64,000 nucleotides of DNA from Thermodesulfovibrionales bacterium (GTDB lineage Bacteria; Nitrospirota; Thermodesulfovibrionia; Thermodesulfovibrionales; SM23-35), in contig JBAZZX010000002.1 of NCBI GenBank assembly GCA_041658585.1, forward strand, positions 4,704 to 68,703, given 5' to 3'. Below are positions 3,255 through 54,965 of this stretch, in pieces; within the stretch, counting starts at the first letter, position 1; each line of letters starts with the position of its first letter. The notes under the pieces are model-generated. The model was not told the origin of the DNA and made no database searches. It saw nothing but the letters and a program-made list of their open reading frames with translations. A program made the translations under genes and the position numbers.

Positions 3255-3298
3255 TTTATACACTTGAACCCTTTAATAGTTTATTATGAGGAGTGGAT

Positions 3299-3775
3299 AT
3301 GACAAATAAGAAACCCGTACTGATCCTCGGCATCGGCAACCTTATCTTGAAGGACGAGGGGTTTGGAGTACATGTAGTCCGGCAGATGGCGGATATCCCC
3401 CTGCCTGATAATGTTGAGCTTATGGATGGGGGCACCATGGGCATCGATCTCCTTTACTATATTGAAGGGAGGAAAAAGGTGGTTGTTATCGACGTAGTCG
3501 ACGCAGGCAGCCCGCCGGGGACACTCTACAGGTTCACCGATAAGAATATCGAATACCACAAGGAAATGTTGCGTTCGGCCCATGAGATCGATTTTGCATA
3601 CATTCTGAAAATGGCTGAACAGCTTGGCACTATTCCGGACGAAGTTGTCTTCATCGGCATAACACCCCGGGAAATCGAACCGGGTGTCGGACTGACTCCT
3701 GTGCTGGAGGAAAAGATCCCTCAGGTTATTGAACTGGTGATGAAGGAGTTAAAACAAGATACTGGAGATAAGTAG
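3299..3775 (+). CDS. Hydrogenase maturation endopeptidase, copy 2
   Basis: VLILGIGNLILKDEGFGVHV...VELMDGGTMG. The ATG at 3299 is preceded by gaggag. The ORF track begins at an alternative GTG at 3293. Confidence 0.85.
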   Translation: MTNKKPVLILGIGNLILKDEGFGVHVVRQMADIPLPDNVELMDGGTMGIDLLYYIEGRKKVVVIDVVDAGSPPGTLYRFTDKNIEYHKEMLRSAHEIDFAYILKMAEQLGTIPDEVVFIGITPREIEPGVGLTPVLEEKIPQVIELVMKELKQDTGDK

Positions 3776-4403: not shown

Positions 4404-4692
4404 GGGTTCAAGGGGTCGAGGATTCAAGGACAAAAACAAAACAGGGGCAAGATAGAGGCACAACAACGACAGAAATCGAGGGTTCGTGCCGTCGATAATC
4501 CAAGCATGTCATGGTGAACTTGTCGAACCACGGCCCTTCGACAAGCTCAGGGTGACACCGAATTCCTCAACATTGGAGTAGACATAAGGTTACCTATCGG
4601 TTGTATAATAAAATAATACGAAAATAGGTTAACTCAAGGAAAGAGAACATTGAATAACACATGACCCCTTGAATCCTCGAATCCTTGAATCC
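4404..4692. repeat. Non-coding segment bounded by inverted GGATTCAAGG blocks, containing a family-A hairpin pair
   Basis: gggttcaaggggtcgaggattcaagga (4404-4430) faces ccccttgaatcctcgaatccttgaatcc (4665-4692). A family-A arm pair lies at 4508-4556. Confidence 0.65.
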
Positions 4693-7149: not shown

Positions 7150-7199
7150 CACCCTTCGACAGGCTCAGGGTGACAAAAAAGATTTTTTGCAAGAGCGTC
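7150..7199. repeat. Family-A right half, in the 5' leader of the cytochrome genes
   Basis: cacccttcgacaggctcagggtgacaaaaaagattttttgcaagagcgtc. Confidence 0.7.
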
Positions 7200-7256
7200 A
7201 AAATCGGCTTTAAGAACTATTAAGTTTTATAAATTTTCTAAAAAGGGGGTTTGAAA

Positions 7257-8096
7257 ATGAAGTTAGCCCATGGGAATAGGGAAAAGATTCATGTGTTCCG
7301 GCCGCTGCTGATACTTCTCTTGGCGTGTTTTTTGACTGCGGGACTTTTGGTAAGTAACCAGAACAAAAGCATTGCGGCCTCTCAGCTTTCAAATGATGAC
7401 TGCGTCAAGTGCCACCTTACTGTTCAGGAAATGGTGGACAGCAAGGGAGGCAAGCATAAGACCGCTATTAACTGCATGGGGTGCCATAAGGGACACCCTC
7501 CAATGGTGAGCAAAGAGAAAATAATACCTGTTTGCAGCGATTGTCATGCAGGTAAGAAACACTATGAAATAGGCGGTTGTAATACATGCCATTCAAATCC
7601 CCATGCACCCCTTGATATGAAATTGGCTGCAAATCTCACCGGCCCCTGCCTTTCCTGTCACGAAAAACAGGGGGACGAGCTTAAGACACATCAAACCCGC
7701 CATTCGAAATTGTTCTGCACAACCTGTCACAAGGCTCATAAGGAGATTCCTTCCTGTCTGAAATGCCATCAGGCACATTCAGCAGATATGGTCGAAAAAG
7801 ATTGCCTGATCTGTCATCCAGCGCATCAGCCGCTCACTATTACGTACGGTGCTGATATGCCATCAAAATCCTGCGCAGCCTGCCATAAGACTATTTTCGA
7901 TACCCTGCTGACCGGTACCGAAACGAAGCATTCCAAACTGGCATGCGTTTATTGTCATAAGGATAAACATAGAAATGTTCCAGCCTGTGAAACCTGTCAC
8001 GGAAATCCACATCCTGCTGGAATGACGGCAAAATTCCCCAAATGTAACATGTGCCATACCAGTGCACATAGTTTAGGAAAGGAGGCTCAGAAGTGA
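7257..8096 (+). CDS. Dodecaheme c-type cytochrome
   Basis: 12 CxxCH motifs in ~280 aa, with a hydrophobic N-terminus. The ATG at 7257 follows aaaaggggg. Confidence 0.9.
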   Translation: MKLAHGNREKIHVFRPLLILLLACFLTAGLLVSNQNKSIAASQLSNDDCVKCHLTVQEMVDSKGGKHKTAINCMGCHKGHPPMVSKEKIIPVCSDCHAGKKHYEIGGCNTCHSNPHAPLDMKLAANLTGPCLSCHEKQGDELKTHQTRHSKLFCTTCHKAHKEIPSCLKCHQAHSADMVEKDCLICHPAHQPLTITYGADMPSKSCAACHKTIFDTLLTGTETKHSKLACVYCHKDKHRNVPACETCHGNPHPAGMTAKFPKCNMCHTSAHSLGKEAQK

Positions 8097-9019
8097 TGAA
8101 TCAAAGGAAAAAATCAGTCTTAATTACAATCGGGTTATCGATAGTATTGCTCATCATCGTAGCCTGTGCAACAGAAGAGATAGCCCCGGTAACAGCACAG
8201 CCTGTACCAGAGGCAACTGCACAGCCTGCAGAGACTGCAGTGGAGGCGCCGAAACCCGCACCGAAACCGCTCTCTACCTATGATGTTGAACTGACACCCC
8301 TTACTCCTGCTGATTGTGGCCGCTGCCATGCGAGTGTCTTTAATCAGATCAAAGCTGAAGGCGGCAAGCATAAGATCGACTGTACAAAATGTCATACCAA
8401 GTTTCATGCGTACAATCCGGTGAAACAGAACTGGAACGATATCATGCCTCAATGTAAAACTTGTCATGGCCTTATCCATGGTGAGAAATTCGCAGTATGT
8501 GCGACATGTCACTCAAATCCGCATGCTCCCAAAACACAAATGACCATGAGCGCGGAAATGTCAAAGGTGTGCGGCGATTGTCACGTAAAAGTAGCACCGG
8601 TACTTCAGAACAATCCAAGCAAACATACCAAGGTTGCATGCGCGGCATGCCATCACGACAAGCATGGCTACATCCCATCCTGCATGGAATGTCATAAACC
8701 GCATTCAGCAAATCAGACAGTTAAGGATTGTCTGGCGTGCCACCCGGTACATTCTCCTCTAAAAATCAGCTATGCCATTTCAACTCCTACTGATGTCTGT
8801 GGAGCTTGCCACAGCGCAGTGTATGGTAAACTCAAAGCCAATACCAGTAAACACTCGACATTGACCTGTGCAGCATGTCACACAAAACATAGATTTATCC
8901 CTAAATGTGATGGTTGCCACAGCAAACCTCATGGCGAAGCAATGCTCAAGAAGTTCCCGAACTGTTCAGCTTGTCATGTGAGCGCACACGAAATTCCATC
9001 GAAGTCGGTCGCAAAATAA
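8096..9019 (+). CDS. Dodecaheme c-type cytochrome, lipoprotein-like paralogue
   Basis: 12 CxxCH motifs collinear with the previous gene. The N-terminus ...LLIIVAC is followed by a Pro/Ala-rich linker. The start overlaps the upstream stop (TGATG). Confidence 0.9.
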   Translation: MNQRKKSVLITIGLSIVLLIIVACATEEIAPVTAQPVPEATAQPAETAVEAPKPAPKPLSTYDVELTPLTPADCGRCHASVFNQIKAEGGKHKIDCTKCHTKFHAYNPVKQNWNDIMPQCKTCHGLIHGEKFAVCATCHSNPHAPKTQMTMSAEMSKVCGDCHVKVAPVLQNNPSKHTKVACAACHHDKHGYIPSCMECHKPHSANQTVKDCLACHPVHSPLKISYAISTPTDVCGACHSAVYGKLKANTSKHSTLTCAACHTKHRFIPKCDGCHSKPHGEAMLKKFPNCSACHVSAHEIPSKSVAK

Positions 9020-9036
9020 AAGAGCTTTCCTTTAAA

Positions 9037-9066
9037 CCCCGGGGGAATTCTCCCCCGGGGTTTTTT
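9037..9066 (+). terminator. Rho-independent terminator
   Basis: ccccggggga / attc / tcccccgggg followed by tttttt. Confidence 0.75.
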
Positions 9067-9073
9067 GTCTATA

Positions 9074-9233
9074 GAGCCTCTTGCAAAAGTCTGATAAAGG
9101 GCCCTTCTGTCATTCTGAGCTTGTCGTTCTCCTCAGCGAATCCGCCGGGGCGGAAAGAATCATGACTAAGCAATAAGTTATGTCACCCTTCGACAAGCTC
9201 AGGGTGACAAATTAGGACTTTTGCAAGAGGCTC
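9074..9233. mobile_element. Family-A MITE-like element, complete (both terminal inverted repeats)
   Basis: gagcctcttgcaaaagt ... acttttgcaagaggctc. The inner part is a GTCATTCTGAGCTTGTCG variant with the nested hairpin ccgccggggcgg. Confidence 0.8.
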
Positions 9234-9464
9234 TATAATAATAGATTAAGGAGAACTTACATCTATATTCTTACGCCGCGCGGTAATCATTTGAAAAAAT
9301 GTCTTTGTAAGGGGATTAACCGGTAATCCTCCTTTGAAAAAAGAGAGGGGGGAGTTTTATTGATAAAATAAAAACTACACCAGCCCTTCTTCGCAAACGA
9401 GCGCGAACATATTTGGAGCATTGTGAAGAAATTGTGAAAATTGCTGAATTATCACGGAAATTTA

Positions 9465-9493
9465 TTGACAAAGGGATGTAGAGAAGTTAAAAT
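9465..9493 (+). promoter_or_regulatory. Sigma-70-type promoter
   Basis: TTGACA, a 17-nt spacer, TAAAAT. It lies 60 nt upstream of the 9554 ATG. Confidence 0.6.
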
Positions 9494-9553
9494 TAATTGT
9501 TAACTGTATAAAATATATAAAATTGCACAATACGGAATAGATAAGGAAAAGAA

Positions 9554-10354
9554 ATGCATTTAATGACAAAGACGGCGAGAAATTATATTCTTGCAATTTT
9601 GGTTCCTGCTTTGTATTTTTTGCTGAATCTTCAAGCACTCGCAGCAGAGGGGAATCCGTGCCTTACATGTCATGGTGATCTTAAGGCACAGAAAACCATT
9701 CATCAACCACTTGCTATGGGTTGTGAAGCATGCCACAAGGCGGTAGAAGGCAAAAACCATCCTGAAAAGGGCAGCATGGTTCTCATACAGGGAATGCCGG
9801 CTCTTTGTTACAGTTGTCATGACGAATCAAAATTCAAAGGAAGTTCAATCCATAAGCCCATATCCATTGGTATCTGTAAAGCATGTCATAATCCCCATAG
9901 CTCGAATTTTAAAAACCTCCTTAGAAGTGAATTACCGGAGCTTTGTTATTTTTGTCATGACAAAGGGAAATTCACAAAAAAATACAATCACAAAGTGATC
10001 AATGTGATTGGCTGTGTGACATGCCATAATCCCCATGCGAGCAACAACCCATCGCTTCTGTCCAACCCTGTTAATGAAGTCTGTGTGACCTGTCACAAGG
10101 CCCAGTCATCAGGGTTGCATATTGTCTCACTTCCTGCAAGACAGGTTCATCCGATTAAAGGCGTCAAGGATATCAGCACCCTCAAAATGATCAAAGTTCC
10201 GGACCCTAAAAATCCAAAGGTACAAGTTGAAATACCGGACCCCAACGTTCCCGGCAAGGAATTAAGCTGCGCAAGCTGTCATAACCCGCATAGTTCGGAT
10301 TATCCAAAACTCTTCCTACAGCAAAGGATCTGCCTTAGATGCCACAAATACTGA
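9554..10354 (+). CDS. Nonaheme c-type cytochrome, secreted
   Basis: 9 CxxCH motifs, several as CxxCHNPH. Signal peptide ends ...LQALAAEG. Confidence 0.9.
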   Translation: MHLMTKTARNYILAILVPALYFLLNLQALAAEGNPCLTCHGDLKAQKTIHQPLAMGCEACHKAVEGKNHPEKGSMVLIQGMPALCYSCHDESKFKGSSIHKPISIGICKACHNPHSSNFKNLLRSELPELCYFCHDKGKFTKKYNHKVINVIGCVTCHNPHASNNPSLLSNPVNEVCVTCHKAQSSGLHIVSLPARQVHPIKGVKDISTLKMIKVPDPKNPKVQVEIPDPNVPGKELSCASCHNPHSSDYPKLFLQQRICLRCHKY

Positions 10355-11409
10355 AACCAGGGGGCCGACTATTGCCTAATAAATATCAATCAGCAGTTCT
10401 CAACAGGATATTCGTCTTACTGATACTTGTTATTATGATTGCAGGCTGCGTTACCGCATCAAGTCAGAGTGATCAAGCCATGGGTGAATACGTTTGGCCG
10501 ACTCCGCCTGAGACTCCCAGGATCAAGTTCGTAAGACAGTGGTATCACAAATATGATTTCGGAAAACCAAACAAATTTCTCAATCTATTAATCGGTGAGG
10601 AACGCGGCATACGTCTCCGGAGACCGGCCGGCGTAGTATCGGATTTGGCAGGCAATGTTTACGTGGCGGATTCAGAACACGGGGTTATATTCGTCTTTGA
10701 CCAGGAGAAGAAAGTCCTTCGCTTTCTGGGTGAAGGATTGCTGTCCGCCCCTATCGGTCTTGCAATAAATAACAAGAAAGGGATATTGTTTGTATCCGAC
10801 TCAAGACTTGACAAGGTTTTCGGTATTGACAAAAATAGCGGCAAGGTTTTAATGGATTTGGGTACTCCAGGCCAGTTCAAGAATCCATCCGGGTTGGTCT
10901 ATGATGAAACCAACGATCGGCTCTATGCGTCCGATACCAAAAACCATGTGGTAAGAGTTTTTGATGAAAACGGCAAGTCTTTACTGACAGTCGGAAAGAA
11001 GGGAAATGAAGATGGAGAATTCAGTTATCCAAGCTTCCTGGCTCTGGACAAGTCCGGCAGGCTTTATGTTGTTGACTCTTTGAATTTCAGGGTACAGATA
11101 TTTGACCGCGAAGGCCGGTTTATCAAGAAATTCGGCAAATTGGGTGACTCCTCCGGATCTTTCTCCCGACCCGCAGGAATAGGAGTCGATTCTGAAGGAC
11201 ATGTCTATGTGGTTGATACGTCTTTTAATAACTTCCAGATTTTCAGCGAGGATGGAAAACTCCTGTTGTGGGTCGGACAGGGAGGCGGAAAACCGGGGGA
11301 ATTCTCCCTTCCTACGGGGATGTATATTGACGGAAAAGACATGATTTATGTTTCAGACACATTTACCAGACGAATTCAGGTATTTCAGTATTTGAAGGAA
11401 AATAAATAA
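10339..11409 (+). CDS. NHL-repeat beta-propeller lipoprotein
   Basis: Lipobox MIAGC. Repeated G.F..P.G(I/L)A.D..G..YV.D..N.R(I/V)QIF units. Confidence 0.85.
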   Translation: MPQILKPGGRLLPNKYQSAVLNRIFVLLILVIMIAGCVTASSQSDQAMGEYVWPTPPETPRIKFVRQWYHKYDFGKPNKFLNLLIGEERGIRLRRPAGVVSDLAGNVYVADSEHGVIFVFDQEKKVLRFLGEGLLSAPIGLAINNKKGILFVSDSRLDKVFGIDKNSGKVLMDLGTPGQFKNPSGLVYDETNDRLYASDTKNHVVRVFDENGKSLLTVGKKGNEDGEFSYPSFLALDKSGRLYVVDSLNFRVQIFDREGRFIKKFGKLGDSSGSFSRPAGIGVDSEGHVYVVDTSFNNFQIFSEDGKLLLWVGQGGGKPGEFSLPTGMYIDGKDMIYVSDTFTRRIQVFQYLKENK

Positions 11410-11465
11410 ATGTACGATAAACTGGATGAAAAATATTGCAGCGCCGATCCGTCAAAATTCCATGC

Positions 11466-13463
11466 ATGACATTGAAAGAACGAAAGAATATTTTTACGTT
11501 GATTCCATGCATCATCTTTTCTTGGCTGGGGGAAAAAAATAGGGTTCTCTCTTCCGGGCGCATTGTAATATTTGTATTTGCGCTGTTTTTTTTTTCGGCA
11601 ATCTTCACATTACCCTATAAATCCTTAGCCATGTCAACAAATCAGGGAGGAATGGGAGGAACCGGACCGGAAACAGGAATCTCTTACTCTCAACTTTACG
11701 GAGGCAAAACTAAGGCAAGATATTCCTTCAGATTTGATGGCCTGGTTGAATTGACTTACCGAGACTCTACAATATTGACATCGTACAATGGTATAAGACA
11801 AAAAACCGGCTGGACTTCTTTCGGACAGCGGTACAAACTTGGCGGGCATGGTTTCATTTATCACCACAAGCTGCTTAAATATTACGTAAACGTAGGCTTT
11901 AACTCGGACAAAACAAAAAATGACAATGAGACAGGTTCTGTCAATTCAAAACAAATAACCTATGATCTGGGGTTGATTTTTTTTAACACGAGGCCGGTTA
12001 CTCTGGACCTTTATGCTTCGAGAACACTTTATGCCGGCGGCGGCTCCAACTTGACTGATGATTCTGTCTCCACATCATATGGCATCCGTTTGGTCTCGGT
12101 AAAAAAACCATTGCCTGTAATACGTATGGAATATTCCCATTGGGATTATCATGCCGAACGAATGGGCGGCACGAGGTTTTACGACGAATGGGAGGGGAAG
12201 TCCATAATTGTGAAACAAAAGGTCAAATACGAGACAATCAGCGACAGATTCGATATCTATGCAAACGGCTTTTGGAAGTCCCTAAAAACACGATATTCAT
12301 TCAGTTCCGGCTTTGTAAAATTTTCGACTCTGAACCGGGATTTCGATACGTTTTATATCAGGACCAGTTTCTATACGCAATTTAAAAGTAACCATTCTCT
12401 CTGGAGTTCTTTTCAGTATAGGAAGATTGACACATCAAAGCTTCTAAACATTTCATTTGATTACAAGCCGGTCCCCATCAAAAACATACATCATAGCTAC
12501 AGCTTTGAGTATATGAAATCGGAAACACCGGATACTAAATCAAATGCCTATATATTTGGCAGCCTATGGCGCTACCGGTTTTCTCCCAAGACCAATGCCA
12601 AAGTGGATTTCCATTACAGGCTCGGTTCAAATTCCGGAGACGACGAGACAGCCATAAAATTCGATGCTTCCATTAACCACGGCAGACCGTTAAAAGTATT
12701 CGATTTAATCACCCAGTATAACTTTTTTATCGGACAGGAAACAAACGACAATAATTTCACTTTTCTGGAAAATAGACTTTACCTTTCTCTGGCGACGAGG
12801 AAATACCGATGGGGGAAAATATATACGACTTATGACATCAGATACAATATCTTTAATTTTAAATTCAACTCAACAGACCCCGGCAAGCCCACATCAAAGG
12901 ATACTGACGAAATACAGCATAGATTCAGACTTGGAGCAAAAGTCAAAGGACCTTTAAGGGCTTCATGGTCCGTCGAACTGGAAGCCAGATACCTTGATTC
13001 CTCTGAAAAAAATGCAGGTGCATGGAAGAGTGTGTGGATAGGTGAAAATCAATGGGCGCAGAAGATCAGGCATTATTCCGCGAAGGCGGATCTCCGCTAC
13101 CCTATCGGAAGAAAAGGTACTTTGTCACTCGCCGGAAGCTATACCATGGGTGAGACGAATTCCCAACCGATCAGGAAGTATGATTATGAATCACGGTTGC
13201 ATTACAACATTTTCAGAGACCTCCGCTTTTCCGGCTGGTGGAGAGTTGAATGGCGAAGTGCAGGATGGTGGAGTAACGGCAACTTGCAAAATGTCGACAG
13301 GCAGTTTTACAATGATACGAAAACAACGGATTATCAATTCAACCTTGATTATGCCTGGAGAAAACTCTTTTTTTCGATGGAATACGCATGGACCAAATTT
13401 GAAGAAGGAACAATTGAAACAGATGCAAAACGTATGTATTTAAGGGTAAGCAGACCATTTTGA
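11466..13463 (+). CDS. Large outer-membrane beta-barrel-like protein (putative porin of the cytochrome conduit)
   Basis: ~666 aa from the ATG at 11466 (the ORF track starts at TTG 11436). It has a hydrophobic signal-like segment ...FFFSAIFTLPYKSLA, an aromatic-rich alternating pattern throughout, and a C-terminal ...YLRVSRPF. Confidence 0.65.
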   Translation: MTLKERKNIFTLIPCIIFSWLGEKNRVLSSGRIVIFVFALFFFSAIFTLPYKSLAMSTNQGGMGGTGPETGISYSQLYGGKTKARYSFRFDGLVELTYRDSTILTSYNGIRQKTGWTSFGQRYKLGGHGFIYHHKLLKYYVNVGFNSDKTKNDNETGSVNSKQITYDLGLIFFNTRPVTLDLYASRTLYAGGGSNLTDDSVSTSYGIRLVSVKKPLPVIRMEYSHWDYHAERMGGTRFYDEWEGKSIIVKQKVKYETISDRFDIYANGFWKSLKTRYSFSSGFVKFSTLNRDFDTFYIRTSFYTQFKSNHSLWSSFQYRKIDTSKLLNISFDYKPVPIKNIHHSYSFEYMKSETPDTKSNAYIFGSLWRYRFSPKTNAKVDFHYRLGSNSGDDETAIKFDASINHGRPLKVFDLITQYNFFIGQETNDNNFTFLENRLYLSLATRKYRWGKIYTTYDIRYNIFNFKFNSTDPGKPTSKDTDEIQHRFRLGAKVKGPLRASWSVELEARYLDSSEKNAGAWKSVWIGENQWAQKIRHYSAKADLRYPIGRKGTLSLAGSYTMGETNSQPIRKYDYESRLHYNIFRDLRFSGWWRVEWRSAGWWSNGNLQNVDRQFYNDTKTTDYQFNLDYAWRKLFFSMEYAWTKFEEGTIETDAKRMYLRVSRPF

Positions 13464-13540
13464 CACATACTGATGATCGTGCAAATTTATCAAATACCAG
13501 GGACAATTTCCAAAAATATCATAGCTATTTAGATATTATA

Positions 13541-14599
13541 ATGAAGTCAATAAATTGCTTAAACAAGCTTCTTGCCCTTTGCTTTCTATTCGCAGTTGTG
13601 ACTCTTTCCGGGTGTGCTGCTTCCGGGCTTTTCAATCAGAACGACAGGTTTGCAGAACAGAAGGTTGTGCCGGTCTGGCCGGCCCCTCCCCAGCAGCCAC
13701 GCATAAAATATCTGACGGGCTTTTCCACATCTTCCGAGCTTGGCATTAGAAAATCATGGTTCAAAAAGACAATAGAAACGGTCTTTGGAGAGGAAGAAGT
13801 TCGGGATGTACTGCTTCGGCCCTATGGTATTTTTGCGACAGATGGAAAAATTTATGTTACAGACCCCGGCACAAGGATTCTTCATATCTTTGATCCTGGA
13901 GCGGGGAGGTATTCACGCATCATGGATGCAGATACTGAAGAGTTTCAGTCTCCTATCGGTGTGGCTGCAGACGGGAATGGAGATATCTATATGACCGATT
14001 CCATTCTGAAAAAGGTGTTCGTATTCAACAGAGAAGGGAAGCACATAAGGCAAATTGGTTCCTCAGATGCATTTCTTCGACCCACGGGTATTGCTCTCGA
14101 TCATGAAAGAATTTATATAATTGATACACATGCCCATCATGTGTTAGTATTCAACAAAAAAGGCGAGCACCTCTTCAGTTTTGGCGGCAACGGAGCAAAA
14201 AAAGGCGAATTCAACTATCCAACTAATATTTTCAAAGGCAAAGACGGTCTGCTCTATATCACTGATTCCATGAACTTCCGGGTCCAGATTTTTGACAGAG
14301 ACGGCAAATTTGTATCCGCCTTCGGCAAACCCGGCGACGGTTCGGGCGACCTCTCAAAACCCAAAGGCATAGCAGTCGACTCCGACGGCCATATATATGT
14401 TGCCGATGCTCAATTCGACAACGTACAGATATTCAACAGTGAAGGCAAGCTTTTACTGGGGGTCGGGAAAACAGGAAACAATATTGGGCAGATGATCCTG
14501 CCGGCGGGCGTTTTTATCGACGAGTACGACAGGGTTTATGTAGCCGACTCTTACAACCACAGGATTCAGATATTTCAGTATATAAAAGAGAGGAAGTAA
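13541..14599 (+). CDS. NHL-repeat beta-propeller lipoprotein, paralogue
   Basis: MKSINCLNKLLALCFLFAVVTLSGC lipobox. It has the same VWPAPP..PRIK N-terminal motif and NHL units as 10339..11409. Confidence 0.85.
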   Translation: MKSINCLNKLLALCFLFAVVTLSGCAASGLFNQNDRFAEQKVVPVWPAPPQQPRIKYLTGFSTSSELGIRKSWFKKTIETVFGEEEVRDVLLRPYGIFATDGKIYVTDPGTRILHIFDPGAGRYSRIMDADTEEFQSPIGVAADGNGDIYMTDSILKKVFVFNREGKHIRQIGSSDAFLRPTGIALDHERIYIIDTHAHHVLVFNKKGEHLFSFGGNGAKKGEFNYPTNIFKGKDGLLYITDSMNFRVQIFDRDGKFVSAFGKPGDGSGDLSKPKGIAVDSDGHIYVADAQFDNVQIFNSEGKLLLGVGKTGNNIGQMILPAGVFIDEYDRVYVADSYNHRIQIFQYIKERK

Positions 14600-15514
14600 A
14601 TGTGTTCTGAAAGAAAATATTTTTGCAGGTCATTTATCGGGATGTTCCCAAATAATACCATATATCGTCATTCCTCAACTCAACCGGGAAATCCGGTTTC
14701 CACGATCAGGCCGAAGAATAACAAGATTTATAGTTCAAGTGGTTTGACATACCAACTTGTTGGGTTCGCTATTTTTTTTCTTCTCTCAATTCCCGTAATT
14801 GCCCTCGCAGGCGGTATCAGGGATACAAAGCATAACCTTTCCGGATCACTCAGCAAATGGCAGGGAAAATTTACAGTCAAGGCAGTTGATGAACCGGAAA
14901 TATGCATTTTTTGCCATACTCCTCATAATGCGTCGCCGGCCCAACCCCTTTGGAACCATGACTTAAGCGGGGTCACAAACTATATCAATTACTGGAGCAA
15001 TACCCTTGCATCCTATTCTTCAGAGGCTGAGGCCCCACCCATTGACGGCTACTCCAAACTGTGCCTCAGTTGCCATGACGGAACGGTTGCAGTCGGCTCA
15101 GTGCAAAGCAGATCGCTGGAAATACTCATGGAGGCCGGCGAGTGTGTCGATGGTTCAGGGAAACTCATCGTCGGCGGAGAGTGCAGCGGATACATCGGGA
15201 CCGATCTTTCGGGAGGACATCCGATATCCATTGTTTACAACCAGTTTCTGGTCGACAAGAGAAATGAAAAAACCAACTTATGCCAGCTTAATCCCCCTCC
15301 GAGCAGTGATCCCGATGTGAAACTTTATCCGACACAGGGAGGTCAGCGGGGTGTGCAGTGCACGAGCTGTCATGACCCGCACACAAATAAGTCGGCAGAA
15401 CTCAAAGACGGCCAGTTATGGCCGCCTTTGTGGCAAAAGCCTTCCTACAATGATGTCTGCTATGTCTGCCACAAAGTTGACTGCGGTGAACCAACAGAGA
15501 TATGGCCATGGTAA
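14600..15514 (+). CDS. Tetraheme c-type cytochrome with an N-terminal membrane anchor
   Basis: CIFCH, CLSCH, CTSCH, CYVCH. One TM helix, LVGFAIFFLLSIPVIALAGG. Confidence 0.85.
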   Translation: MCSERKYFCRSFIGMFPNNTIYRHSSTQPGNPVSTIRPKNNKIYSSSGLTYQLVGFAIFFLLSIPVIALAGGIRDTKHNLSGSLSKWQGKFTVKAVDEPEICIFCHTPHNASPAQPLWNHDLSGVTNYINYWSNTLASYSSEAEAPPIDGYSKLCLSCHDGTVAVGSVQSRSLEILMEAGECVDGSGKLIVGGECSGYIGTDLSGGHPISIVYNQFLVDKRNEKTNLCQLNPPPSSDPDVKLYPTQGGQRGVQCTSCHDPHTNKSAELKDGQLWPPLWQKPSYNDVCYVCHKVDCGEPTEIWPW

Positions 15515-16629
15515 AGTTTTTCCGGTTGTCCTTGTTTATTATCTCTTTAAGCATTCCGTTGACTTTTTTTTCTTCAGCCCATTCAAAGTCTCTTATCGAG
15601 AAAACGCATTTTGATAAAACAAAAGTCCCTATGGGATGCGGAAGTTGCCATATAGGTCATGGTAGAATCCGCACCCCCATGCTGCCCGAAAGGAGAGACC
15701 AGTTCTGTTTCATATGCCATGGAGATAGCTATGCCCTCGACAAAGCGCAAAAAGAGGGTCGCATTGCAAAGAGTGTCAGAGAAAATAATATCAAGAAAGA
15801 GTTTGAGAAACCCAACCACCATCCCATAGAACAAAATACCGGTTTGCACACATACGATGAAATTCTCCCTGAAATCGATTCTTCCATGCCGAGGCACGTG
15901 TCATGCGGTGACTGCCACCATCATCATTTTGTGTCAAAAGAAAATAAAATGCTGGGGATAAGGGGCACAACATCACAAAGAGTGAAAGTCGCCGTATCGG
16001 CTGAATATGAACTCTGCTTTAACTGCCATTCTTACAGCGCCAATCTTCCGTTATATCAAACAAACAAGGCAGAATTGTTTAACATATTGAATCCATCCTT
16101 TCATCCCGTTGTCGGTACGGGGAAAAACATTTCAATGACAAGTCTTATTGCGCCGTTGACAGTATCAAGTCAGATCAAATGCACAGACTGCCATGGCAGC
16201 GACGATCCGACCGGACCGAGAGGTCCTCATGGTTCACAATACAAGTATATACTGTCGAAGAACTTTTCCGATTCTGATGGGCCTGAGAATATTACACAAT
16301 ACGAACTCTGCTACAGTTGTCACAGAAGAAATAGTATATTGAACAACGAAAGCTTCTCTTATCACAATCTGCATATTTCAGATGTGGGGACTTCTTGCAG
16401 GACATGCCACAATCCCCATGGCAGCACAAAGAACCAGCATCTGATTGACTTTGAATCCACCTTTGTTATCAGGCCGTCAACAAGCGGGAGGATGGCTTAT
16501 ACATCAATGGGACCGAATACCGGACAATGCTATCTAACCTGTCACGATAAAGACCATAATCCGGAAGTCTACCCGAAAGGTTCATCAAAACCGGCAGCAC
16601 AGACGTCTTCTTCCAAAAAGAAAAAATAG
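15502..16629 (+). CDS. Multiheme c-type cytochrome (7 CxxCH plus 1 CxxxCH), secreted
   Basis: Motifs counted in the translation. Signal peptide ...FFSSAHSKS. Lys-rich C-terminus. Confidence 0.85.
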   Translation: MAMVKFFRLSLFIISLSIPLTFFSSAHSKSLIEKTHFDKTKVPMGCGSCHIGHGRIRTPMLPERRDQFCFICHGDSYALDKAQKEGRIAKSVRENNIKKEFEKPNHHPIEQNTGLHTYDEILPEIDSSMPRHVSCGDCHHHHFVSKENKMLGIRGTTSQRVKVAVSAEYELCFNCHSYSANLPLYQTNKAELFNILNPSFHPVVGTGKNISMTSLIAPLTVSSQIKCTDCHGSDDPTGPRGPHGSQYKYILSKNFSDSDGPENITQYELCYSCHRRNSILNNESFSYHNLHISDVGTSCRTCHNPHGSTKNQHLIDFESTFVIRPSTSGRMAYTSMGPNTGQCYLTCHDKDHNPEVYPKGSSKPAAQTSSSKKKK

Positions 16630-16650: not shown

Positions 16651-16718
16651 CATCCTGAGCTTGTCGAACCATGACATTTGCTAAATCGCCGGTAGCCCTT
16701 CGACAAGCTCAGGACGAC
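16651..16718. repeat. Family-A hairpin arm pair without terminal repeats
   Basis: catcctgagcttgtcgaaccatgac ... cccttcgacaagctcaggacgac. Confidence 0.65.
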
Positions 16719-16735
16719 AGATTCTCCAACCGAAT

Positions 16736-17455
16736 TTAGATTCGCTGTATCAGAGTCTTCATTTCCCCGACAGCCCGTTCCATCCCAACTAGCACAGCCC
16801 TTGATATGATGCTGTGTCCGATGTAAAGACCCCTCAACCCCTGTATTGAGGCTATTTTTTGAACATTAAAATAATTTAATCCGTGGCCGGCATTGACCAG
16901 AAGACCCGAATCCAGGGCGTGCTTAATTGCGCTTACAATACGGATGAATTCCTTTTCCGCTTTTTTCCCTCTTGCATTGGCATACATGCCCGTATGGATC
17001 TCGACCATATCAGCGCCTATCTCTCTTGTTATTTCAATATCCTTTGCCTCAGGATTAATAAACAGACTGACAGGGATTCCGGAGTCATGGATTTTCTTTA
17101 TTGCTTCGCTGACAGCTTTTTTATGGGACTTCACATCCAGTCCGCCTTCTGTTGTCAATTCCTGTCTTTTTTCAGGGACCAGAGTAACCATATCGGGCTT
17201 TATTTTGGATGCAATGTCTATCATTTCTTTGGTTGCTGCCATTTCGAGGTTGAGTTCCACCGGAACAAATTCCCTCAATATCTTCAAATCCCGGTCCTGA
17301 ATATGACGTCTGTCTTCTCTAAGGTGGACTGTGATGCCATCTGCGCCACCAAGGATAGCAAAGGTTGCAGCCATAACAGGATCAGGCTCAACACCCAGCC
17401 GCGACTGTCTCAGGGTTGCGACATGATCTATGTTAACACCCAATAACATAAACAC
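16736..17455 (-). CDS. pdxJ: Pyridoxine 5'-phosphate synthase
   Basis: [15 protein letters not shown]..., 239 aa. Confidence 0.9.
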
Positions 17456-17464
17456 CTCTACGAG

Positions 17465-18463
17465 TTAACAGATTCTCGGCAATTGGTCTCCGGAGAGCAT
17501 ATCTATCATCCTTGTGCCGCCGATTACTGTCTTTAATAGAATCATGCCTTTGGGTTTTTTCTCAACCTCTCCGATGATGCAGGCTTCCCGTGCCAATGGA
17601 TTCTTCCTCATGGTTTTGACAAGCGGCTCTGCTACGTCACTGCTTACTATTGCAATCAGTATTCCTTCATTGGCAACGTAAAGAGGGTCAAGGCCAAGTA
17701 GTTCACAGGCGCCTTTAACACCGGATGGCACCGGTATGGCATTTTCATGAATAGTAATACAATACCCTGAATCTACTGCGATCTCCTTAAGGGTTGTTGC
17801 AAGACCTCCTCTGGTAGGGTCCCTCATGGCGTGTATTTTCTTTGTTTTTCTCAGCATCTCACGGACAAGACCGTTCAGAGGCGCTGTATCGCTTAAAACT
17901 GGAGGATTAAAGGTAAGTCCGTTTCTTTCCGCGATAATCGAGATACCGTGGTTTCCGATAGGACCGCTCAGGATAACCTTGTCAGTCGGCTTAACTCTTA
18001 AAGGAGATACGTCAACACCTTCATCAATCACTCCGATACCTGAAGTATTAATAAAGATACCGTCGCCTTTTCCTTTGTTGACTACTTTTGTATCGCCGGC
18101 TACTATTTTTACTCCTGCCTTTTGCGCCGCCTCGGACATGGATGAAAGTATCTTTTTTAGATCTTTAAGGGGGAACCCTTCCTCAAGAATAAGGCCTGAT
18201 GAAATATATAGTGGTTTTGCTCCTACCATGGAAAGATCATTTACCGTTCCGTAGACGGCAAGCTCTCCGATGTTGCCCCCGGGGAAAAATACGGGTGATA
18301 CGACATAGGAATCGGTTGTAAAAGCCATTTTCCCTTTGTTAATTGCTTTTAGTATTGCAGAATCATTGAGTGCTTTGAGTTCAAATTCAGGGACAAAATG
18401 CTCCCTGATTAGTTGATACATTAATTTTCCCCCGCTGCCATGACCAAGCAGAATACGCTCCAT
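17465..18463 (-). CDS. hypE: Hydrogenase maturation protein HypE
   Basis: PurM-like fold sequence with the diagnostic C-terminal ...DQLPRIC. Confidence 0.92.
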   Translation of the reverse strand: MERILLGHGSGGKLMYQLIREHFVPEFELKALNDSAILKAINKGKMAFTTDSYVVSPVFFPGGNIGELAVYGTVNDLSMVGAKPLYISSGLILEEGFPLKDLKKILSSMSEAAQKAGVKIVAGDTKVVNKGKGDGIFINTSGIGVIDEGVDVSPLRVKPTDKVILSGPIGNHGISIIAERNGLTFNPPVLSDTAPLNGLVREMLRKTKKIHAMRDPTRGGLATTLKEIAVDSGYCITIHENAIPVPSGVKGACELLGLDPLYVANEGILIAIVSSDVAEPLVKTMRKNPLAREACIIGEVEKKPKGMILLKTVIGGTRMIDMLSGDQLPRIC

Positions 18464-18516
18464 GAGTTAATCCCTCCGTTTAAAATTCTCTATATTTACA
18501 AAATCCATTAATGATT

Positions 18517-18646
18517 GAGGCTCTTGCAAATGTCTTGAAAAGATCAAAATGTCATGGTGAGCCTGTCGAACCATGGCAATAATTCAACTTCTTACAGCAC
18601 CCTTCGACAAGCTCAGGGTGACAAAAAGGACTTTTGCAATAAGCTC
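18517..18646. mobile_element. Family-A MITE-like element, complete 130-bp form
   Basis: Near-identical to 54836..54965. Terminal repeats are gaggctcttgcaaatgt ... acttttgcaataagctc. Confidence 0.8.
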
Positions 18647-18740
18647 GATTATATAATCAAATAATGTTAAATGCTATTTTAACATATTTATGGTCTCAGA
18701 ATTGAACAGACATTGACTATACCACTCCCTGCTAATTTGC

Positions 18741-18809
18741 CTTCCTTCGACAAGCTCAGGATGACACGATTGGAATGACATGTGTCATGGTGAGCCTGTC
18801 GAACCATGG
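18741..18809. repeat. Family-A hairpin arms
   Basis: ccttcgacaagctcaggatgac ... gtcatggtgagcctgtcgaaccatgg. Confidence 0.65.
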
Positions 18810-18912
18810 CTCCGCTTTACAAAAGTGCGGTTATGATTGGTATTATATATTTTTCGTTTGCCTACTCCCCCGAATCCTTGAACCCTTTTTTATGTTCCTT
18901 GAACCCTGTCTT

Positions 18913-19542
18913 TTACGGCGGTATCCAGATATCTGAAAGAAACAACGGCAGCTCGGCTGCGCATACCGGCCCTACCCTTGCGTTCCATCCAGTCAGGGTT
19001 TCTATCTCATTCTTCAAGGATGATGCAAGGCCGGGTATTATAAAATCTTTTGCGGTAACCTTGTTATCCATGCCTGTCTTTGTCAGAGAATTATATATTC
19101 TATCGGCCGTCAGGGTTTTATAAACCATAGACATATCCACTGTGTTCCCATCCGTATCAACAAACAAGACATAGAAGGGGCAAACTGTTGTGCTAAGGAC
19201 AGTCAGAAGGACCTGTTCCGTGTATTCATTGTTCCCGGATATAATCGTCAGAGACCTTTCATCAGGCTGATTGAGCTCTACAAGTCCGGTAAATGCCGGG
19301 CGTGGATGCGTAAGCAATGGCACCTCGGGCCATGACTCTTCAATCTTTCTGACCGCTTCAAAAGCATAAGCTTTATTCCTGCCGATAAAAGGACATTCCT
19401 GCGGGAGTTTTTCCCCTCTTTTTATTGCATCGATAAATGAATCACAGGAGGAGAACCCGCATTGAACGCAGTCATTTTGATTCAGATATCTTTGAAAATC
19501 TATTTTGTCTATATATAAATCTGCTTTTGGCAATAAGGCCAC
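18913..19542 (-). CDS. Small Fe-S protein with a CFeSP-gamma/HgcA-like C-terminal domain
   Basis: The N-terminal CVQCGFSSCDSF...ECPFI resembles the CxxCGxxxC...CP 4Fe-4S domain of RnfB/AcsC. The C-terminal half is collinear, from memory, with the HgcA/CFeSP corrinoid domain (LFVDTDGNTV..., ...RVGPVCAAELPLFL). Confidence 0.5.
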   Translation of the reverse strand: MALLPKADLYIDKIDFQRYLNQNDCVQCGFSSCDSFIDAIKRGEKLPQECPFIGRNKAYAFEAVRKIEESWPEVPLLTHPRPAFTGLVELNQPDERSLTIISGNNEYTEQVLLTVLSTTVCPFYVLFVDTDGNTVDMSMVYKTLTADRIYNSLTKTGMDNKVTAKDFIIPGLASSLKNEIETLTGWNARVGPVCAAELPLFLSDIWIPP

Positions 19543-19670
19543 CTGCTTAATACTTTTTCTTCATTATATGCAGGTATTATGATTAGGGTATATGATTGCA
19601 TAGGGTCAAATTATAGGTTTTGCCATTCATTTTGCATTGTTAATTGTCCATTGATAATTAATCTTTTCTA

Positions 19671-20738
19671 CTATTTCACCACTCCTGAATACTTGTAATA
19701 CGCCGCGCAGCTGCCTTCGGTGCTTACCATACAGGCGCCGACAGGGTGTTCGGGAGTGCATGTCTTTCCAAATAGTTTGCAGTCTGTGGGTATCTTTATG
19801 CCTCTGAGCACCTGGCCGCACTGACAGCCTTTCGGTTCCTGTGAGTCAGGGACTTGAATATTCAGTATGCGGTTAATGTCCAAACGAGCTTTACTCGCTT
19901 TTAAAGCCAGACCGCTTCCCGGTATCACGCCGATACCCCTCCAGTTTGCGTCACAGGGTTCAAAGTATTCATTGATCAGGGTCACGGCCTTCCTGTTGCC
20001 TTCGGGTTTCACAACCCTCGTGTACTGGATCTCAACTGCCGCCCTGCCCTCAACCGTCTGGGTCATAAGCATCATAATAGAGGTCAGGATATCTTCCGCA
20101 TCAAACCCGGTTACAACCGACGGTATTTTGTAATCGGACGCAAGAAATTCATAGGGAGCGGTCCCTATAATGGCGCTTACATGTCCGGGAAGAATAAAGC
20201 CGTCGATCTTTAAATCCGGAGAACTAAGCAATGCCTTGAGTGCAGGCGGCACAACTTTATGCGCGGAGTATATATAGAAATTCTTCGCTCCTGCCCTTTC
20301 TGCCTCAAAAAGGGTCCCGGCAATGGACGGCGATGTCGTTTCAAATCCGGTTGCAAAGAAAACTACTTTCTTGTCTTTATGCTTCAATGCAAGATCAAGG
20401 GCATCCATAGGTGAATAGACAATATGGATATTGGCGCCTTCGGCCTGTGCGTGAAAGAGTGATTGCCTTTTGCTGCCAGGCACCCTCATCATGTCGCCAA
20501 ATGTGGTAAGCACAAAACCGTCTGTTTTAGAAATTGCCATAGCAATATCTACATCTTTGATGGGAGTTACACAGACAGGGCATCCGGGCCCGCTGAGAAG
20601 GCTTATCTCTTTTGGTATGACTCCTCTGATACCGTGTCTGAATATGGCAACGGTATGCGTCCCGCAAACCTCCATCAACTTAACGGGTCTGCCGATAGCT
20701 TTTGTAAGGCTGTGTATCCTCTCGATTATCTTTTGCAT
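19671..20738 (-). CDS. hypD: Hydrogenase maturation protein HypD
   Basis: CGTHT and GPGCPVCVTP motifs. Confidence 0.92.
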   Translation of the reverse strand: MQKIIERIHSLTKAIGRPVKLMEVCGTHTVAIFRHGIRGVIPKEISLLSGPGCPVCVTPIKDVDIAMAISKTDGFVLTTFGDMMRVPGSKRQSLFHAQAEGANIHIVYSPMDALDLALKHKDKKVVFFATGFETTSPSIAGTLFEAERAGAKNFYIYSAHKVVPPALKALLSSPDLKIDGFILPGHVSAIIGTAPYEFLASDYKIPSVVTGFDAEDILTSIMMLMTQTVEGRAAVEIQYTRVVKPEGNRKAVTLINEYFEPCDANWRGIGVIPGSGLALKASKARLDINRILNIQVPDSQEPKGCQCGQVLRGIKIPTDCKLFGKTCTPEHPVGACMVSTEGSCAAYYKYSGVVK

Positions 20739-23258: not shown

Positions 23259-23300
23259 AAAAAAAAACGGGTTCAGATGTTGTTTTTAAACCTGAACCCG
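23259..23300 (-). terminator. Terminator after hypB (minus strand)
   Basis: cgggttcag ... ctgaacccg hairpin followed on the minus strand by a T9 run. Confidence 0.6.
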
Positions 23301-23338: not shown

Positions 23339-23986
23339 TTATTTCTTCACAATTGTTAACAACCAGTTCACCCAATCGCCGATCCCTTCGCCAGTCCTGC
23401 AGGACACATCAAATATCTTCAATTTCGGGTTGAGGGACAGGGAGTCTTTCCTCATTTTTTCCAGATCGGCATTGGTATACGGGAGGAGATCAATTTTATT
23501 TAAAAGTAATGCTGTTGATTCCTGGAACATCAAAGGATATTTAAGAGGTTTGTCATGGCCCTCGGCTATGCTGAGTAGCATGACCTTTATGTCTTCGCCG
23601 ACCTTGAACTCGGCAGGACAGACGAGATTGCCTACATTCTCGATGAAAAGTATATCAATATCCCTGAGAGGCAGATCATTCATCACCTCTCTGATCATGT
23701 TTGCATCCAGGTGGCACGCTCCGCCGGTGTTTATCTGAACAACAGGTATGCCGAGGTTTTCAATCCTCTGCGCGTCATCGGTTCCGGCAATGTCGCCTTC
23801 TATAACGCCAAGCCTGAGTCTGCCGTTTATCTCCTTTATCGTCCTCTCTAAAACAGACGTCTTGCCGGCACCCGGAGCGCTCATAAGATTGATGACATAA
23901 ACACCTGCTTCCCGGAAAATGTCTCTGTTTTCGGCGGCAAGCCTCTCATTCGCCTCAAGGATATTCGTTACAACCTTAACCTTCAT
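23339..23986 (-). CDS. hypB: Hydrogenase nickel-insertion GTPase HypB
   Basis: P-loop SAPGAGKTS and ENVGNLVCP. Confidence 0.9.
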   Translation of the reverse strand: MKVKVVTNILEANERLAAENRDIFREAGVYVINLMSAPGAGKTSVLERTIKEINGRLRLGVIEGDIAGTDDAQRIENLGIPVVQINTGGACHLDANMIREVMNDLPLRDIDILFIENVGNLVCPAEFKVGEDIKVMLLSIAEGHDKPLKYPLMFQESTALLLNKIDLLPYTNADLEKMRKDSLSLNPKLKIFDVSCRTGEGIGDWVNWLLTIVKK

Positions 23987-24330
23987 TAAAAAACCTCCAT
24001 CTCATCAATATTTAGTTCCCGTCCCGTATCTATCCGCAGAGACAGGTGGCCGCATTTCGGACATGTTATGACGTACGCATCATCAACGGAGAAATCACTG
24101 CTGCATCCGTTGCAGTAACCGCTTACAGGGATTTCATCGATAATCAGAACAGCTTTCTCGGCTATGGTGCCGACCTTCATGGCTTCAAAAGCAAAAAGGA
24201 GGGAATCCGGCATTACACCGGCAGCCTTTCCTATCTTCACTTTTATTGATTCAATGCCTGTATAACCTCGCTTCTTACAGTTCTCTATAGCTATATCGAG
24301 AATACCCTGGGTTATACCGACTTCATGCAT
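23986..24330 (-). CDS. hypA: Hydrogenase nickel-insertion protein HypA
   Basis: MHE N-terminus and a CNGC...CPKCG zinc site. 114 aa. Confidence 0.9.
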   Translation of the reverse strand: MHEVGITQGILDIAIENCKKRGYTGIESIKVKIGKAAGVMPDSLLFAFEAMKVGTIAEKAVLIIDEIPVSGYCNGCSSDFSVDDAYVITCPKCGHLSLRIDTGRELNIDEMEVF

Positions 24331-44032: not shown

Positions 44033-44033
44033 G

Positions 44034-47067: not shown

Positions 47068-47069
47068 TT

Positions 47070-54835: not shown

Positions 54836-54965
54836 GAGGCTCTTGCAAAAGTCTTGAAAAGATCAAAATGTCATGGTGAGCCTGTCGAACCATGTCTATA
54901 ATTCAACTACTTACATCACCCTTCGACAAGCTCAGGGTGACAAAAAGGACTTTTGCAAGAGGCTC
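54836..54965. mobile_element. Family-A MITE-like element, complete 130-bp form
   Basis: gaggctcttgcaaaagtc ... gacttttgcaagaggctc. The left arm is the CATGG variant and the right arm is the CACCC variant. Confidence 0.85.

What the first reader, a model, noticed from the sequence alone, without database searches (positions are those of the whole stretch)
18913..19542. Mini CFeSP/HgcA-like Fe-S protein sitting between hypD and hypE in a hyp cluster that lacks hypC
Seen in sequence:
- The minus-strand maturation genes run hypA-hypB / terminator / hypF-hypD / this 209-aa ORF / 450 bp of repeats / hypE.
- No HypC-like ORF (about 80 aa, starting MC...) is present anywhere in that interval.
- The 209-aa protein starts with NDCVQCGFSSCDSFIDAIKRGEKLPQECPFI, the CxxCGxxxC...CP pattern of the small 4Fe-4S domain found at the N-terminus of RnfB and the CFeSP large subunit.
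- The rest is collinear, from my memory of HgcA/CFeSP corrinoid-domain alignments, with ...LVLDTKGINVWCAAGKGTFGT...LILPQLGA...TGF.VVYGPVRAADLPAFL. Here it reads ...VLFVDTDGNTVDMSMVYKTLTAD...FIIPGLAS...TGWNARVGPVCAAELPLFL.
- The WCAAGK cap-helix motif is therefore not conserved, and the CFeSP TIM-barrel domain is missing.

Inference, speculative: an Fe-S protein of the corrinoid-protein superfamily embedded in a hyp cluster could take part in hydrogenase cofactor assembly. It could, for example, act in one-carbon/CO-ligand chemistry or substitute for a scaffold function.
Basis: partly seen in the sequence, partly recalled or inferred. Interest (0 to 1): 0.65.

Follow-up and report, generated by a model that had tools for sequence, protein, structure and literature searches.

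The report
Barrel-less corrinoid iron-sulfur protein gene

Summary
Window 18913-19542 (-) encodes a 209-aa protein, more likely 206 aa from the TTG at 19533. It has an RnfB/CFeSP-type 4-Cys Fe-S domain and the C-terminal corrinoid-binding domain of the CFeSP large subunit, with no TIM barrel. It lies between hypD and hypE, and the 64-kb window holds no hypC.

It belongs to a large unnamed family of about 206-212 aa in anaerobic Nitrospirota and Desulfobacterota. Asp136-Met137, Cys194 and Glu197 are invariant or nearly so. Met137 sits where CFeSP has Thr374 and HgcA has Cys93. The residues that hold the cobamide nucleotide loop are kept, but the Fe-S cysteines are incomplete in many Desulfobacterota members.

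The hypD>X>hypE order is conserved only in Thermodesulfovibrionales. It accounts for 11 of 108 informative family loci in a context-blind metagenome scan. Elsewhere the gene follows hisG, sits beside hisC/glgC, or follows sir2 or folC.

Best reading: a stand-alone, redox-activatable corrinoid protein with partners encoded elsewhere, not a dedicated Hyp factor. A role in hydrogenase maturation is not excluded (about 5-10%). The location of hypC could not be determined.

The parts
18913..19542 (-). ORF X, the barrel-less CFeSP-like protein. It is 209 aa from the GTG at 19542, or more probably 206 aa from the TTG at 19533.
   Evidence: 400+ homologs of 206-212 aa; AF2 pLDDT 95.7
19539..19544 (-). 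Shine-Dalgarno-like AGGTGG, 5 nt upstream of the TTG at 19533
   Evidence: sequence; most homologs are 206 aa and start M-x-x-ADLY
19387..19485 (-). N-terminal [4Fe-4S]-type domain (aa 20-52) with Cys25, Cys28, Cys33 and Cys50
   Evidence: PF04060 E 8e-8; rnfB TIGR01944 E 6.8e-7; aligns with CFeSP residues 6-58
18928..19290 (-). [quoted passage not shown]
   Evidence: PF03599 positions 270-383; PDB 4djd_C and 2h9a_A; Foldseek rmsd 1.4 A over 122 residues
19132..19137 (-). Invariant Asp136-Met137 at the start of the cap helix. Met137 aligns with CFeSP Thr374 and HgcA Cys93.
   Evidence: 261 of 261 family members and 130 of 130 loci; alignments; Cooper et al. 2020
18952..18963 (-). Cys194-Ala-Ala-Glu197 within GPVCAAELPLFL; Cys194 is nearly invariant and Glu197 invariant
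   Evidence: Cys in 260 of 261, Glu in 261 of 261
19671..20738 (-). hypD, upstream neighbour, 128-bp gap to X
   Evidence: PF01924 E 1e-148
17465..18463 (-). hypE, downstream neighbour
   Evidence: AIRS/AIRS_C domains; C-terminal PRIC motif in the translation
18464..18912 (.). X-hypE spacer holding two copies each of two dispersed repeat units
   Evidence: the spacer is 80 bp in L001
20773..23187 (-). hypF
23339..24330 (-). hypA (23986-24330) and hypB (23339-23986)
23259..23299 (-). terminator-like hairpin plus T9 between hypB and hypF
   Evidence: sequence; not reported by the scanner
16736..17455 (-). pdxJ, an unrelated gene that travels with the cluster
   Evidence: PF03740 E 4e-97; syntenic in relatives

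Best explanation
X is a stand-alone member of the CFeSP/HgcA corrinoid-protein superfamily. [quoted passage not shown]

Shown: the N-terminal four-cysteine domain is the RnfB/CFeSP type. The C-terminal alpha/beta domain is the corrinoid-binding domain.

Inferred mechanism: the C-terminal domain holds a cobamide base-off, with its nucleotide loop gripped by the conserved S/T102-x-N104-x3-T108 loop and by backbone amides near V135 and PGLA. The invariant Asp136-Met137 at the tip of the cap helix faces the lower side of the cobalt. The Fe-S domain, where intact as in this organism, feeds a low-potential electron to return Co(II) to Co(I). The upper face of the corrin is left open for a partner enzyme encoded elsewhere, as a methyl or other alkyl carrier.

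Its position between hypD and hypE is inherited gene order in Thermodesulfovibrionales. It is probably co-transcribed with hyp genes there, but it is not a dedicated part of the Hyp machinery.
For: Homology and fold: E 1e-34 to CFeSP, both domains; pLDDT 95.7, pTM 0.90; rmsd 1.4 A over 122 residues to 4djd_C; the HgcA model 9a0b also matches.

Cofactor-site conservation: N104, T108, G132, D136, M137, P170, G171, G191, P192, C194, E197 and P199 are invariant or nearly so across 261 sequences. All lie at the C-terminal ends of the predicted beta-strands. The T-x-N-x3-T pattern matches the CFeSP/HgcA residues that Cooper et al. list as B12 contacts.

Electron input: a relative (P0196) is fused to an extra FeS plus ferredoxin module.

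Not Hyp-specific: there are at least eight recurrent contexts among 145 loci. hyp accounts for 25 in all, and for 11 of 108 informative loci in the context-blind scan. The hisG clade is nested inside the hyp-context Nitrospirota in a rough NJ tree. pdxJ is carried in the same block.
Against: No cofactor was shown, and corrinoid binding is inferred only from homology.

The cap residue differs from both characterised relatives.

Many Desulfobacterota members lack one or more Fe-S cysteines. Internal reductive activation therefore cannot be the conserved core of the family's function.

No methyltransferase or barrel partner recurs next to the gene.

In Thermodesulfovibrionales the 1-6 bp hypD-X spacing fits operon membership, and hypC was found nowhere in the DNA I could read. 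A lineage-specific Hyp role therefore remains possible.
Confidence: 0.55

Rival explanations
1. X is a lineage-specific accessory factor of anaerobic [NiFe]-cofactor assembly in Thermodesulfovibrionales. It might deliver low-potential electrons to the HypD cluster, or take part in making the CO ligand from a one-carbon unit.
For: The gene lies between hypD and hypE on the same strand in 25 loci, often 1-6 bp after hypD. The Fe-S motif is intact in 21 of the 24 full-length hyp-context loci scored. No hypC lies near any of these clusters. The 2025 review states that the anaerobic CO source and the electron donor to HypD are both unresolved, and that C1 metabolism is suspected.
Against: Orthologs with identical invariant residues sit behind hisG or elsewhere in sister lineages, and never near hyp in Desulfobacterota. 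In several genomes opposite-strand genes or 2-3 kb inserts separate X from hypD or hypE. Unrelated pdxJ shares the same synteny. E. coli builds the cofactor anaerobically with six Hyp proteins and no such protein. A methyl-carrying corrinoid is not an obvious chemical route to CO.
Confidence: 0.08
2. The C-terminal domain no longer binds a corrinoid. The invariant Asp136, Met137, Cys194 and Glu197 form a new site for a metal ion or another ligand, which would make X a small redox or metal-handling protein.
For: The cap motif of both characterised relatives is replaced. Soft and hard ligands (Met, Cys, Asp, Glu) are invariant or nearly so. No cobalamin riboswitch or cobalamin gene lies nearby in the window.
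Against: The loop that binds the nucleotide tail of B12 in CFeSP and HgcA is strictly kept. The fold superposes at 1.4 A.
Confidence: 0.2
3. X serves folate, one-carbon, purine or histidine metabolism, as a methyl acceptor from methyl-tetrahydrofolate or in a related role.
For: Independent neighbourhoods include hisG (14 loci, Nitrospirota), hisC (TIGR01141 above cutoff, Desulfobacterota), and folC with purH. CFeSP itself is methylated from methyl-tetrahydrofolate (established knowledge).
Against: All these neighbours are housekeeping genes. hisC is divergent rather than co-transcribed. No pterin-binding methyltransferase is adjacent. The association was noticed after the fact.
Confidence: 0.12

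Closest known systems
CFeSP large subunit (AcsC / CdhE gamma subunit; PDB 2H9A, 2YCL, 4DJD, 9FZY)
   Same: It shares the N-terminal C-x2-C-x4-C-x16-C Fe-S domain and the C-terminal corrinoid-binding alpha/beta domain (33% identity, rmsd 1.4 A). It also shares the T-x-N-x3-T and DT.G..V motifs.
   Different: X lacks the roughly 260-residue TIM barrel that pairs with the small subunit. Its NCBIfam score is 92 bits against a cutoff of 306. No acs/cdh genes lie in the window. The cap residue Thr374 is replaced by an invariant Met preceded by Asp. Cys194 and Glu197 are additional near-invariant or invariant residues.
HgcA corrinoid-binding domain (mercury methylation)
   Same: Both have a corrinoid domain without a TIM barrel. 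The C-terminal motif GPV.AA[DE]LP.FL is similar. X hits HgcAB_like at E 6e-16 and HgcA_corrinoid at E 1.4e-9. The HgcAB model 9a0b matches by fold.
   Different: X lacks the N(V/I)WC(A/S) motif and its Cys93 ligand, having Met at that position. It has no transmembrane domain and no adjacent hgcB. It carries its own N-terminal Fe-S domain. Its scores are far below the family cutoffs (275-285 bits).
RnfB N-terminal Fe-S domain (PF04060)
   Same: The same small four-cysteine domain (PDB 7zc6_B and 8ahx_B).
   Different: No ferredoxin-type clusters, no membrane anchor and no rnf genes.
HypC/HybG/HupF chaperones and HypX
   Same: Only the genomic neighbourhood (hyp genes), and, for HypX, the idea of a C1-linked accessory protein.
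   Different: There is no sequence or fold similarity. X has no Cys2 and no OB-fold (HypC features), and no formyltransferase or crotonase-like domains (HypX features).

Membership tests
CFeSP large subunit (AcsC/CdhE) | N-terminal [4Fe-4S] domain with four Cys | tested here: met
   PF04060 E 8e-8. Cys25, 28, 33 and 50 align with the CFeSP cysteines. Cluster binding itself was not tested.
CFeSP large subunit (AcsC/CdhE) | Central TIM-barrel domain that pairs with the small subunit | tested here: not met
   Only PF03599 positions 270-383 of 387 are matched. The protein is 206-209 aa, against about 445 aa for CFeSP. The NCBIfam score is 91.9 bits against a cutoff of 306.
CFeSP large subunit (AcsC/CdhE) | C-terminal Rossmann-like corrinoid-binding domain | tested here: met
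   Profile E 1e-34; Foldseek rmsd 1.4 A over 122 residues.
CFeSP large subunit (AcsC/CdhE) | Encoded with acsD/acsE/acsB (cdh) genes | tested here: not met
   None of the window ORFs of 150 aa or more that were scanned is an acs/cdh gene. None appears in 145 related loci.
CFeSP large subunit (AcsC/CdhE) | Binds a cobamide base-off and cycles Co(I)/CH3-Co(III) | not testable with these tools
   Only the conservation of the nucleotide-loop contacts can be seen.
HgcA | Cap-helix motif N(V/I)WC(A/S) with the Cys ligand | tested here: not met
   The sequence reads TVDMS; Met137 is at the Cys93 position.
HgcA | C-terminal domain with five transmembrane helices | tested here: not met
   The protein ends 10 residues after the corrinoid domain.
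HgcA | Adjacent hgcB ferredoxin gene | tested here: not met
   The neighbours are hypD and hypE.
HypC/HybG/HupF | About 80-aa OB-fold protein starting Met-Cys, with the MC[LI].[VI]P motif | tested here: not met
   X starts M(ALL)PKADLY and folds as alpha/beta. No HypC-like ORF lies in the window or in 1.34 Mb of related loci.
Dedicated Hyp accessory gene | Conserved linkage to hyp genes across the lineages that carry it | tested here: not met
   Linkage is found only in Thermodesulfovibrionales: 11 of 108 informative loci in the blind scan, and none in Desulfobacterota.

The most novel reading that the evidence does not exclude
In Thermodesulfovibrionales this corrinoid/Fe-S protein is a seventh maturation factor. 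It would work with HypD and HypE under anoxic conditions, either supplying low-potential electrons to HypD or handling the one-carbon precursor of the CO ligand, in genomes whose hyp clusters carry no hypC.
Probability: 0.06. Interest if true: 0.85.

Novelty: new variant of a known kind. Interest (0 to 1): 0.4.

Why it matters
Published phylogenies of the PF03599 superfamily recognise three branches: CdhD, CdhE and HgcA. This roughly 208-aa architecture, Fe-S domain plus corrinoid domain with an invariant Asp-Met at the axial position, appears to be a fourth, unnamed branch. It is common in anaerobic sulfate-reducing and syntrophic lineages. Public sources label it a CODH/ACS gamma subunit or a hypothetical protein.

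If Met137 contacts cobalt, that would be a lower-ligand environment I know of in no B12 protein, alongside His-on, Cys-on and ligand-free binding.

For hydrogenase research the gene is a weak candidate for the unsolved anaerobic CO-ligand and HypD electron-donor questions. The comparative evidence here argues against giving it priority.

Tried and rejected
- HypC hidden as a small ORF. tblastn, an N-terminal motif regex, an HxGFA regex and a three-sequence HMM found nothing in the window or in 162 sequences totalling 1.34 Mb.
- Cobalamin riboswitch or other RNA near the gene. Rfam gave only sub-threshold hits, and these fall on the dispersed repeats.
- The 450-bp repeats as part of the system. 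Rejected: they are dispersed elements found throughout the window and are absent from the closest relative.
- Rosetta-stone fusions. The longer ORFs in the family are N-terminal over-calls. One fusion is to an FeS plus ferredoxin module; none is to a methyltransferase or a Hyp domain.
- A universal neighbour. None was found across 145 loci.
- Scanning metagenome contigs with the distant-member alignment. This failed because no stretch was conserved enough. It was replaced by a back-translated motif scan.
All three HypD relatives that were looked up (74-76% identical) again carry X.
- Measuring distances between Met137, Cys194 and the cofactor site. Model coordinates are not exposed by the tools.

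Full report
WHAT IS THERE

The minus strand of window 16.7-24.3 kb reads hypA, hypB, a hairpin with a T-run, hypF, hypD, X, a 449-bp spacer, hypE, pdxJ. X (18913-19542) is a 209-aa ORF from a GTG. That GTG lies inside an AGGTGG Shine-Dalgarno-like sequence, 5 nt ahead of an in-frame TTG at 19533. Most homologs are 206 aa and begin M-x-x-ADLY, so the 206-aa form is more likely.

The closest genomic relative, 93% identical in X and 97% in HypD, is a Thermodesulfovibrionales MAG.

DOMAIN IDENTITY

Pfam finds PF04060 (the RnfB/CFeSP-type Fe-S domain) at aa 20-52. It finds only the last quarter of PF03599 (profile 270-383 of 387) at aa 85-198.

NCBIfam ranks the acetyl-CoA synthase gamma subunit first (E 3.9e-26, 92 bits against a cutoff of 306). 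HgcAB-like (6e-16), HgcA (1.4e-9) and RnfB follow.

Against the PDB, the single sequence hits the CFeSP large subunit at 2.4e-14. A 36-sequence family profile hits it at 1.1e-34. In both searches there are two separate matches, to CFeSP residues 6-58 and about 315-444.

AlphaFold2 with the family alignment gives pLDDT 95.7 and pTM 0.90. Foldseek superposes the C-terminal domain on 4djd_C at 1.4 A over 122 residues, and also retrieves the published HgcAB model.

THE FAMILY

The protein belongs to a large family of 206-212-aa proteins. There are 400 hits at E<=1e-3 with the single sequence. A profile of distant members gives 486 hits at E<=1e-10. In the 50%-identity representative library, 25 clusters score below 1e-30.

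Members come from Thermodesulfovibrionales and other Nitrospirota, and from Desulfobacterota (Desulfobaccales, Syntrophales, Syntrophobacteria). Sources call them hypothetical, '(Fe-S)-binding protein' or, wrongly, CODH/ACS gamma subunit. No NCBIfam model reaches its cutoff.

Across 261 members the invariant or near-invariant residues are Y10, Y19, N104, T108, G132, D136, M137, P170, G171, G191, P192, C194, E197 and P199. In the model all of those from N104 onward lie at the C-terminal ends of the beta-strands, which is the cofactor face.

The S/T102-x-N104-x3-T108 loop has the spacing and chemistry of the CFeSP TTNFSLT loop. Cooper et al. list Thr60 and Thr66, plus the backbone amides of Val91 and Ala153, as the conserved B12 contacts shared by CFeSP and HgcA. 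Mapping those onto S/T102, T108, V135 and the PGLA turn is my inference from motif spacing.

Gap-free alignment of DTDG(T/N)(S/T)V puts invariant Met137 exactly on CFeSP Thr374.

The four Fe-S cysteines are complete in all 120 close homologs. In the distant set they are incomplete in many members. They are also incomplete in nearly all loci of two Desulfobacterota context classes. The conserved core of the family is therefore the corrinoid-type domain, not the cluster.

IS IT A HYP GENE?

Among 22 GTDB species genomes carrying a close homolog, 13 have hypD>X>hypE>pdxJ on one strand. Five have hisG>X with a 1-6 bp gap, convergent on znuCBA (one of these five shows only the znu side). One has X convergent on pdxJ-hypE. 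Three have other contexts.

Three HypD relatives that are 74-76% identical again show ribD / DUF948-ytxH-hypA-hypB-hypF-hypD-X-hypE-pdxJ(-hycI). The whole region is colinear in this order, and unrelated pdxJ is carried in the block.

In several genomes, opposite-strand TPR genes or 2-3 kb of other DNA separate X from hypD or hypE.

A rough NJ tree places the hisG-context proteins as a derived clade inside the hyp-context Nitrospirota (no support values). This suggests the hyp position is ancestral for the order and was left more than once without loss of the gene or its invariant residues.

Desulfobacterota members looked up on long contigs show no hyp genes.

For a context-blind sample I back-translated the invariant GPxCAAELPLF and scanned the metagenome contigs. 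Of the 120 loci returned, 113 carry a family ORF and 108 have at least one neighbour. Neighbour labels were checked.

| Context | Loci |
|---|---|
| hisC< X >response regulator>glgC>His_Phos | 27 |
| prmA>MBL>sir2>X | 14 |
| hypD>X>hypE | 11 |
| hisG>X | 7 |
| next to a B12-radical SAM/PCC/HD group | 5 |
| folC>X (once with purH) | 4 |
| acpS< X> <pdxJ<hypE | 2 |
| unique contexts | 38 |

The hyp linkage is thus real and more than chance within one order. It is not a property of the family.

hypC

No HypC-like ORF exists in the window, in any of the hyp-cluster loci, or anywhere in the 1.34 Mb fetched.

The window itself begins inside a [NiFe]-hydrogenase operon. Positions 1-384 encode the C-terminal end of a large subunit (DPCIACAVH). 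Two HycI-type endopeptidase genes follow at 1971-2444 and 3293-3775.

A colinear contig (L160) shows a LuxR regulator, a tetrahaem cytochrome, the small subunit and the large subunit upstream, again without hypC.

X cannot replace HypC on any structural ground.

MECHANISM

Shown:
- the domain homology;
- the predicted fold;
- conservation of the cofactor-face residues;
- the variable gene contexts.

Inferred:
- X binds a cobamide base-off as CFeSP does;
- Asp136-Met137 form the lower-face environment of cobalt, possibly a thioether contact;
- the Fe-S domain, intact in this organism, re-reduces Co(II), as the equivalent cluster does in CFeSP (established knowledge, cited);
- a partner acting on the exposed upper face is encoded elsewhere.

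A relative fused to an additional FeS/ferredoxin module (P0196) fits a redox-activated corrinoid.

The recurrence of hisG, hisC, folC and purH as neighbours is a weak, post-hoc hint towards one-carbon/AICAR metabolism.

A Hyp role would matter, because the anaerobic CO source and the electron donor to HypD are open questions. I put it at 5-10%.

OTHER CHECKS

The scanner called no intrinsic terminator in the hypD-X gap or in the X-hypE spacer. Its only terminator-like matches lie inside the X coding sequence, and there were only chance-level promoter matches. Rfam found nothing relevant. The spacer repeats are dispersed elements. The window ORFs of 150 aa or more that were scanned include no acetyl-CoA-pathway or cobalamin genes.

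VERDICT

- X is a new architectural variant within a known superfamily, uncharacterised and moderately interesting in its own right.

Noticed in passing
L160:3590-3650 (upstream of the window start; the same in L159 and L161); the C-terminal end of the gene is window 1-384 (+): The [NiFe]-hydrogenase large-subunit gene has two in-frame TGA codons at both cysteine positions of the N-terminal RxCGxCxxxH nickel-binding motif (AQRI*GV*PTGH). Gene callers therefore split it into 62 + 484 aa. It is seen in three assemblies of near-identical strains. The cause could be double selenocysteine at an unusual site, or a pseudogene. No strong hairpin follows the codons (z = +0.9).
   Followed up: partly
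window 1971-2444 (+) and 3293-3775 (+): Two paralogous HycI/HybD-type hydrogenase maturation endopeptidase genes lie downstream of the hydrogenase operon. A 23S-rRNA-IVP-type four-helix-bundle ORF (2824-3036) separates them. Relatives instead carry a hycI after pdxJ, which this window lacks.
   Followed up: partly
window 508-620, 1732-1865, 4508-4556, 7153-7174, 9187-9208, 16697-18808, 54870-54941: There are two dispersed repeat units of about 22-28 nt (GTCATGGTGAGCCTGTCGAACCATG and CCTTCGACAAGCTCAGGGTGAC), with 7 and 11 copies and zero expected by chance, mostly in intergenic DNA. They inflate the X-hypE spacer and draw weak Rfam 'AaHKsRNA41' hits.
   Followed up: partly
window 43304-45290 (-) and 46300-48326 (-): A tandem duplication of a two-gene unit: a 418-aa TauE/SafE-family exporter plus a 242/255-aa protein with no Pfam match. 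A GntR/UTRA regulator gene lies next to it at 48361-49098 (-).
   Followed up: no
window 7251-16629 (+): A cluster of multihaem cytochromes c (paired CXXCH), two NHL-repeat beta-propeller proteins and a 675-aa protein with no Pfam match. The cluster is conserved next to the hyp region in relatives (L157, L158, L160).
   Followed up: no
L030:4434-9176, L027, L029, L031 and about 27 metagenome loci: In Desulfobacterota the family gene sits divergent from hisC-cmk-rpsA. It is followed by a single-domain response regulator, glgC, and a His_Phos_1 phosphatase that scores just under the CobC alpha-ribazole phosphatase cutoff (160.3 against 162.9 bits). In these proteins the Fe-S cysteine motif is incomplete.
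   Followed up: partly
L013:10822-12162 (-), L126:2606-3952, L073: In one Nitrospirota subgroup, a B12-binding radical SAM gene (PF02310 + PF04055) with PCC-domain and HD-domain genes lies convergent to the family gene.
   Followed up: no
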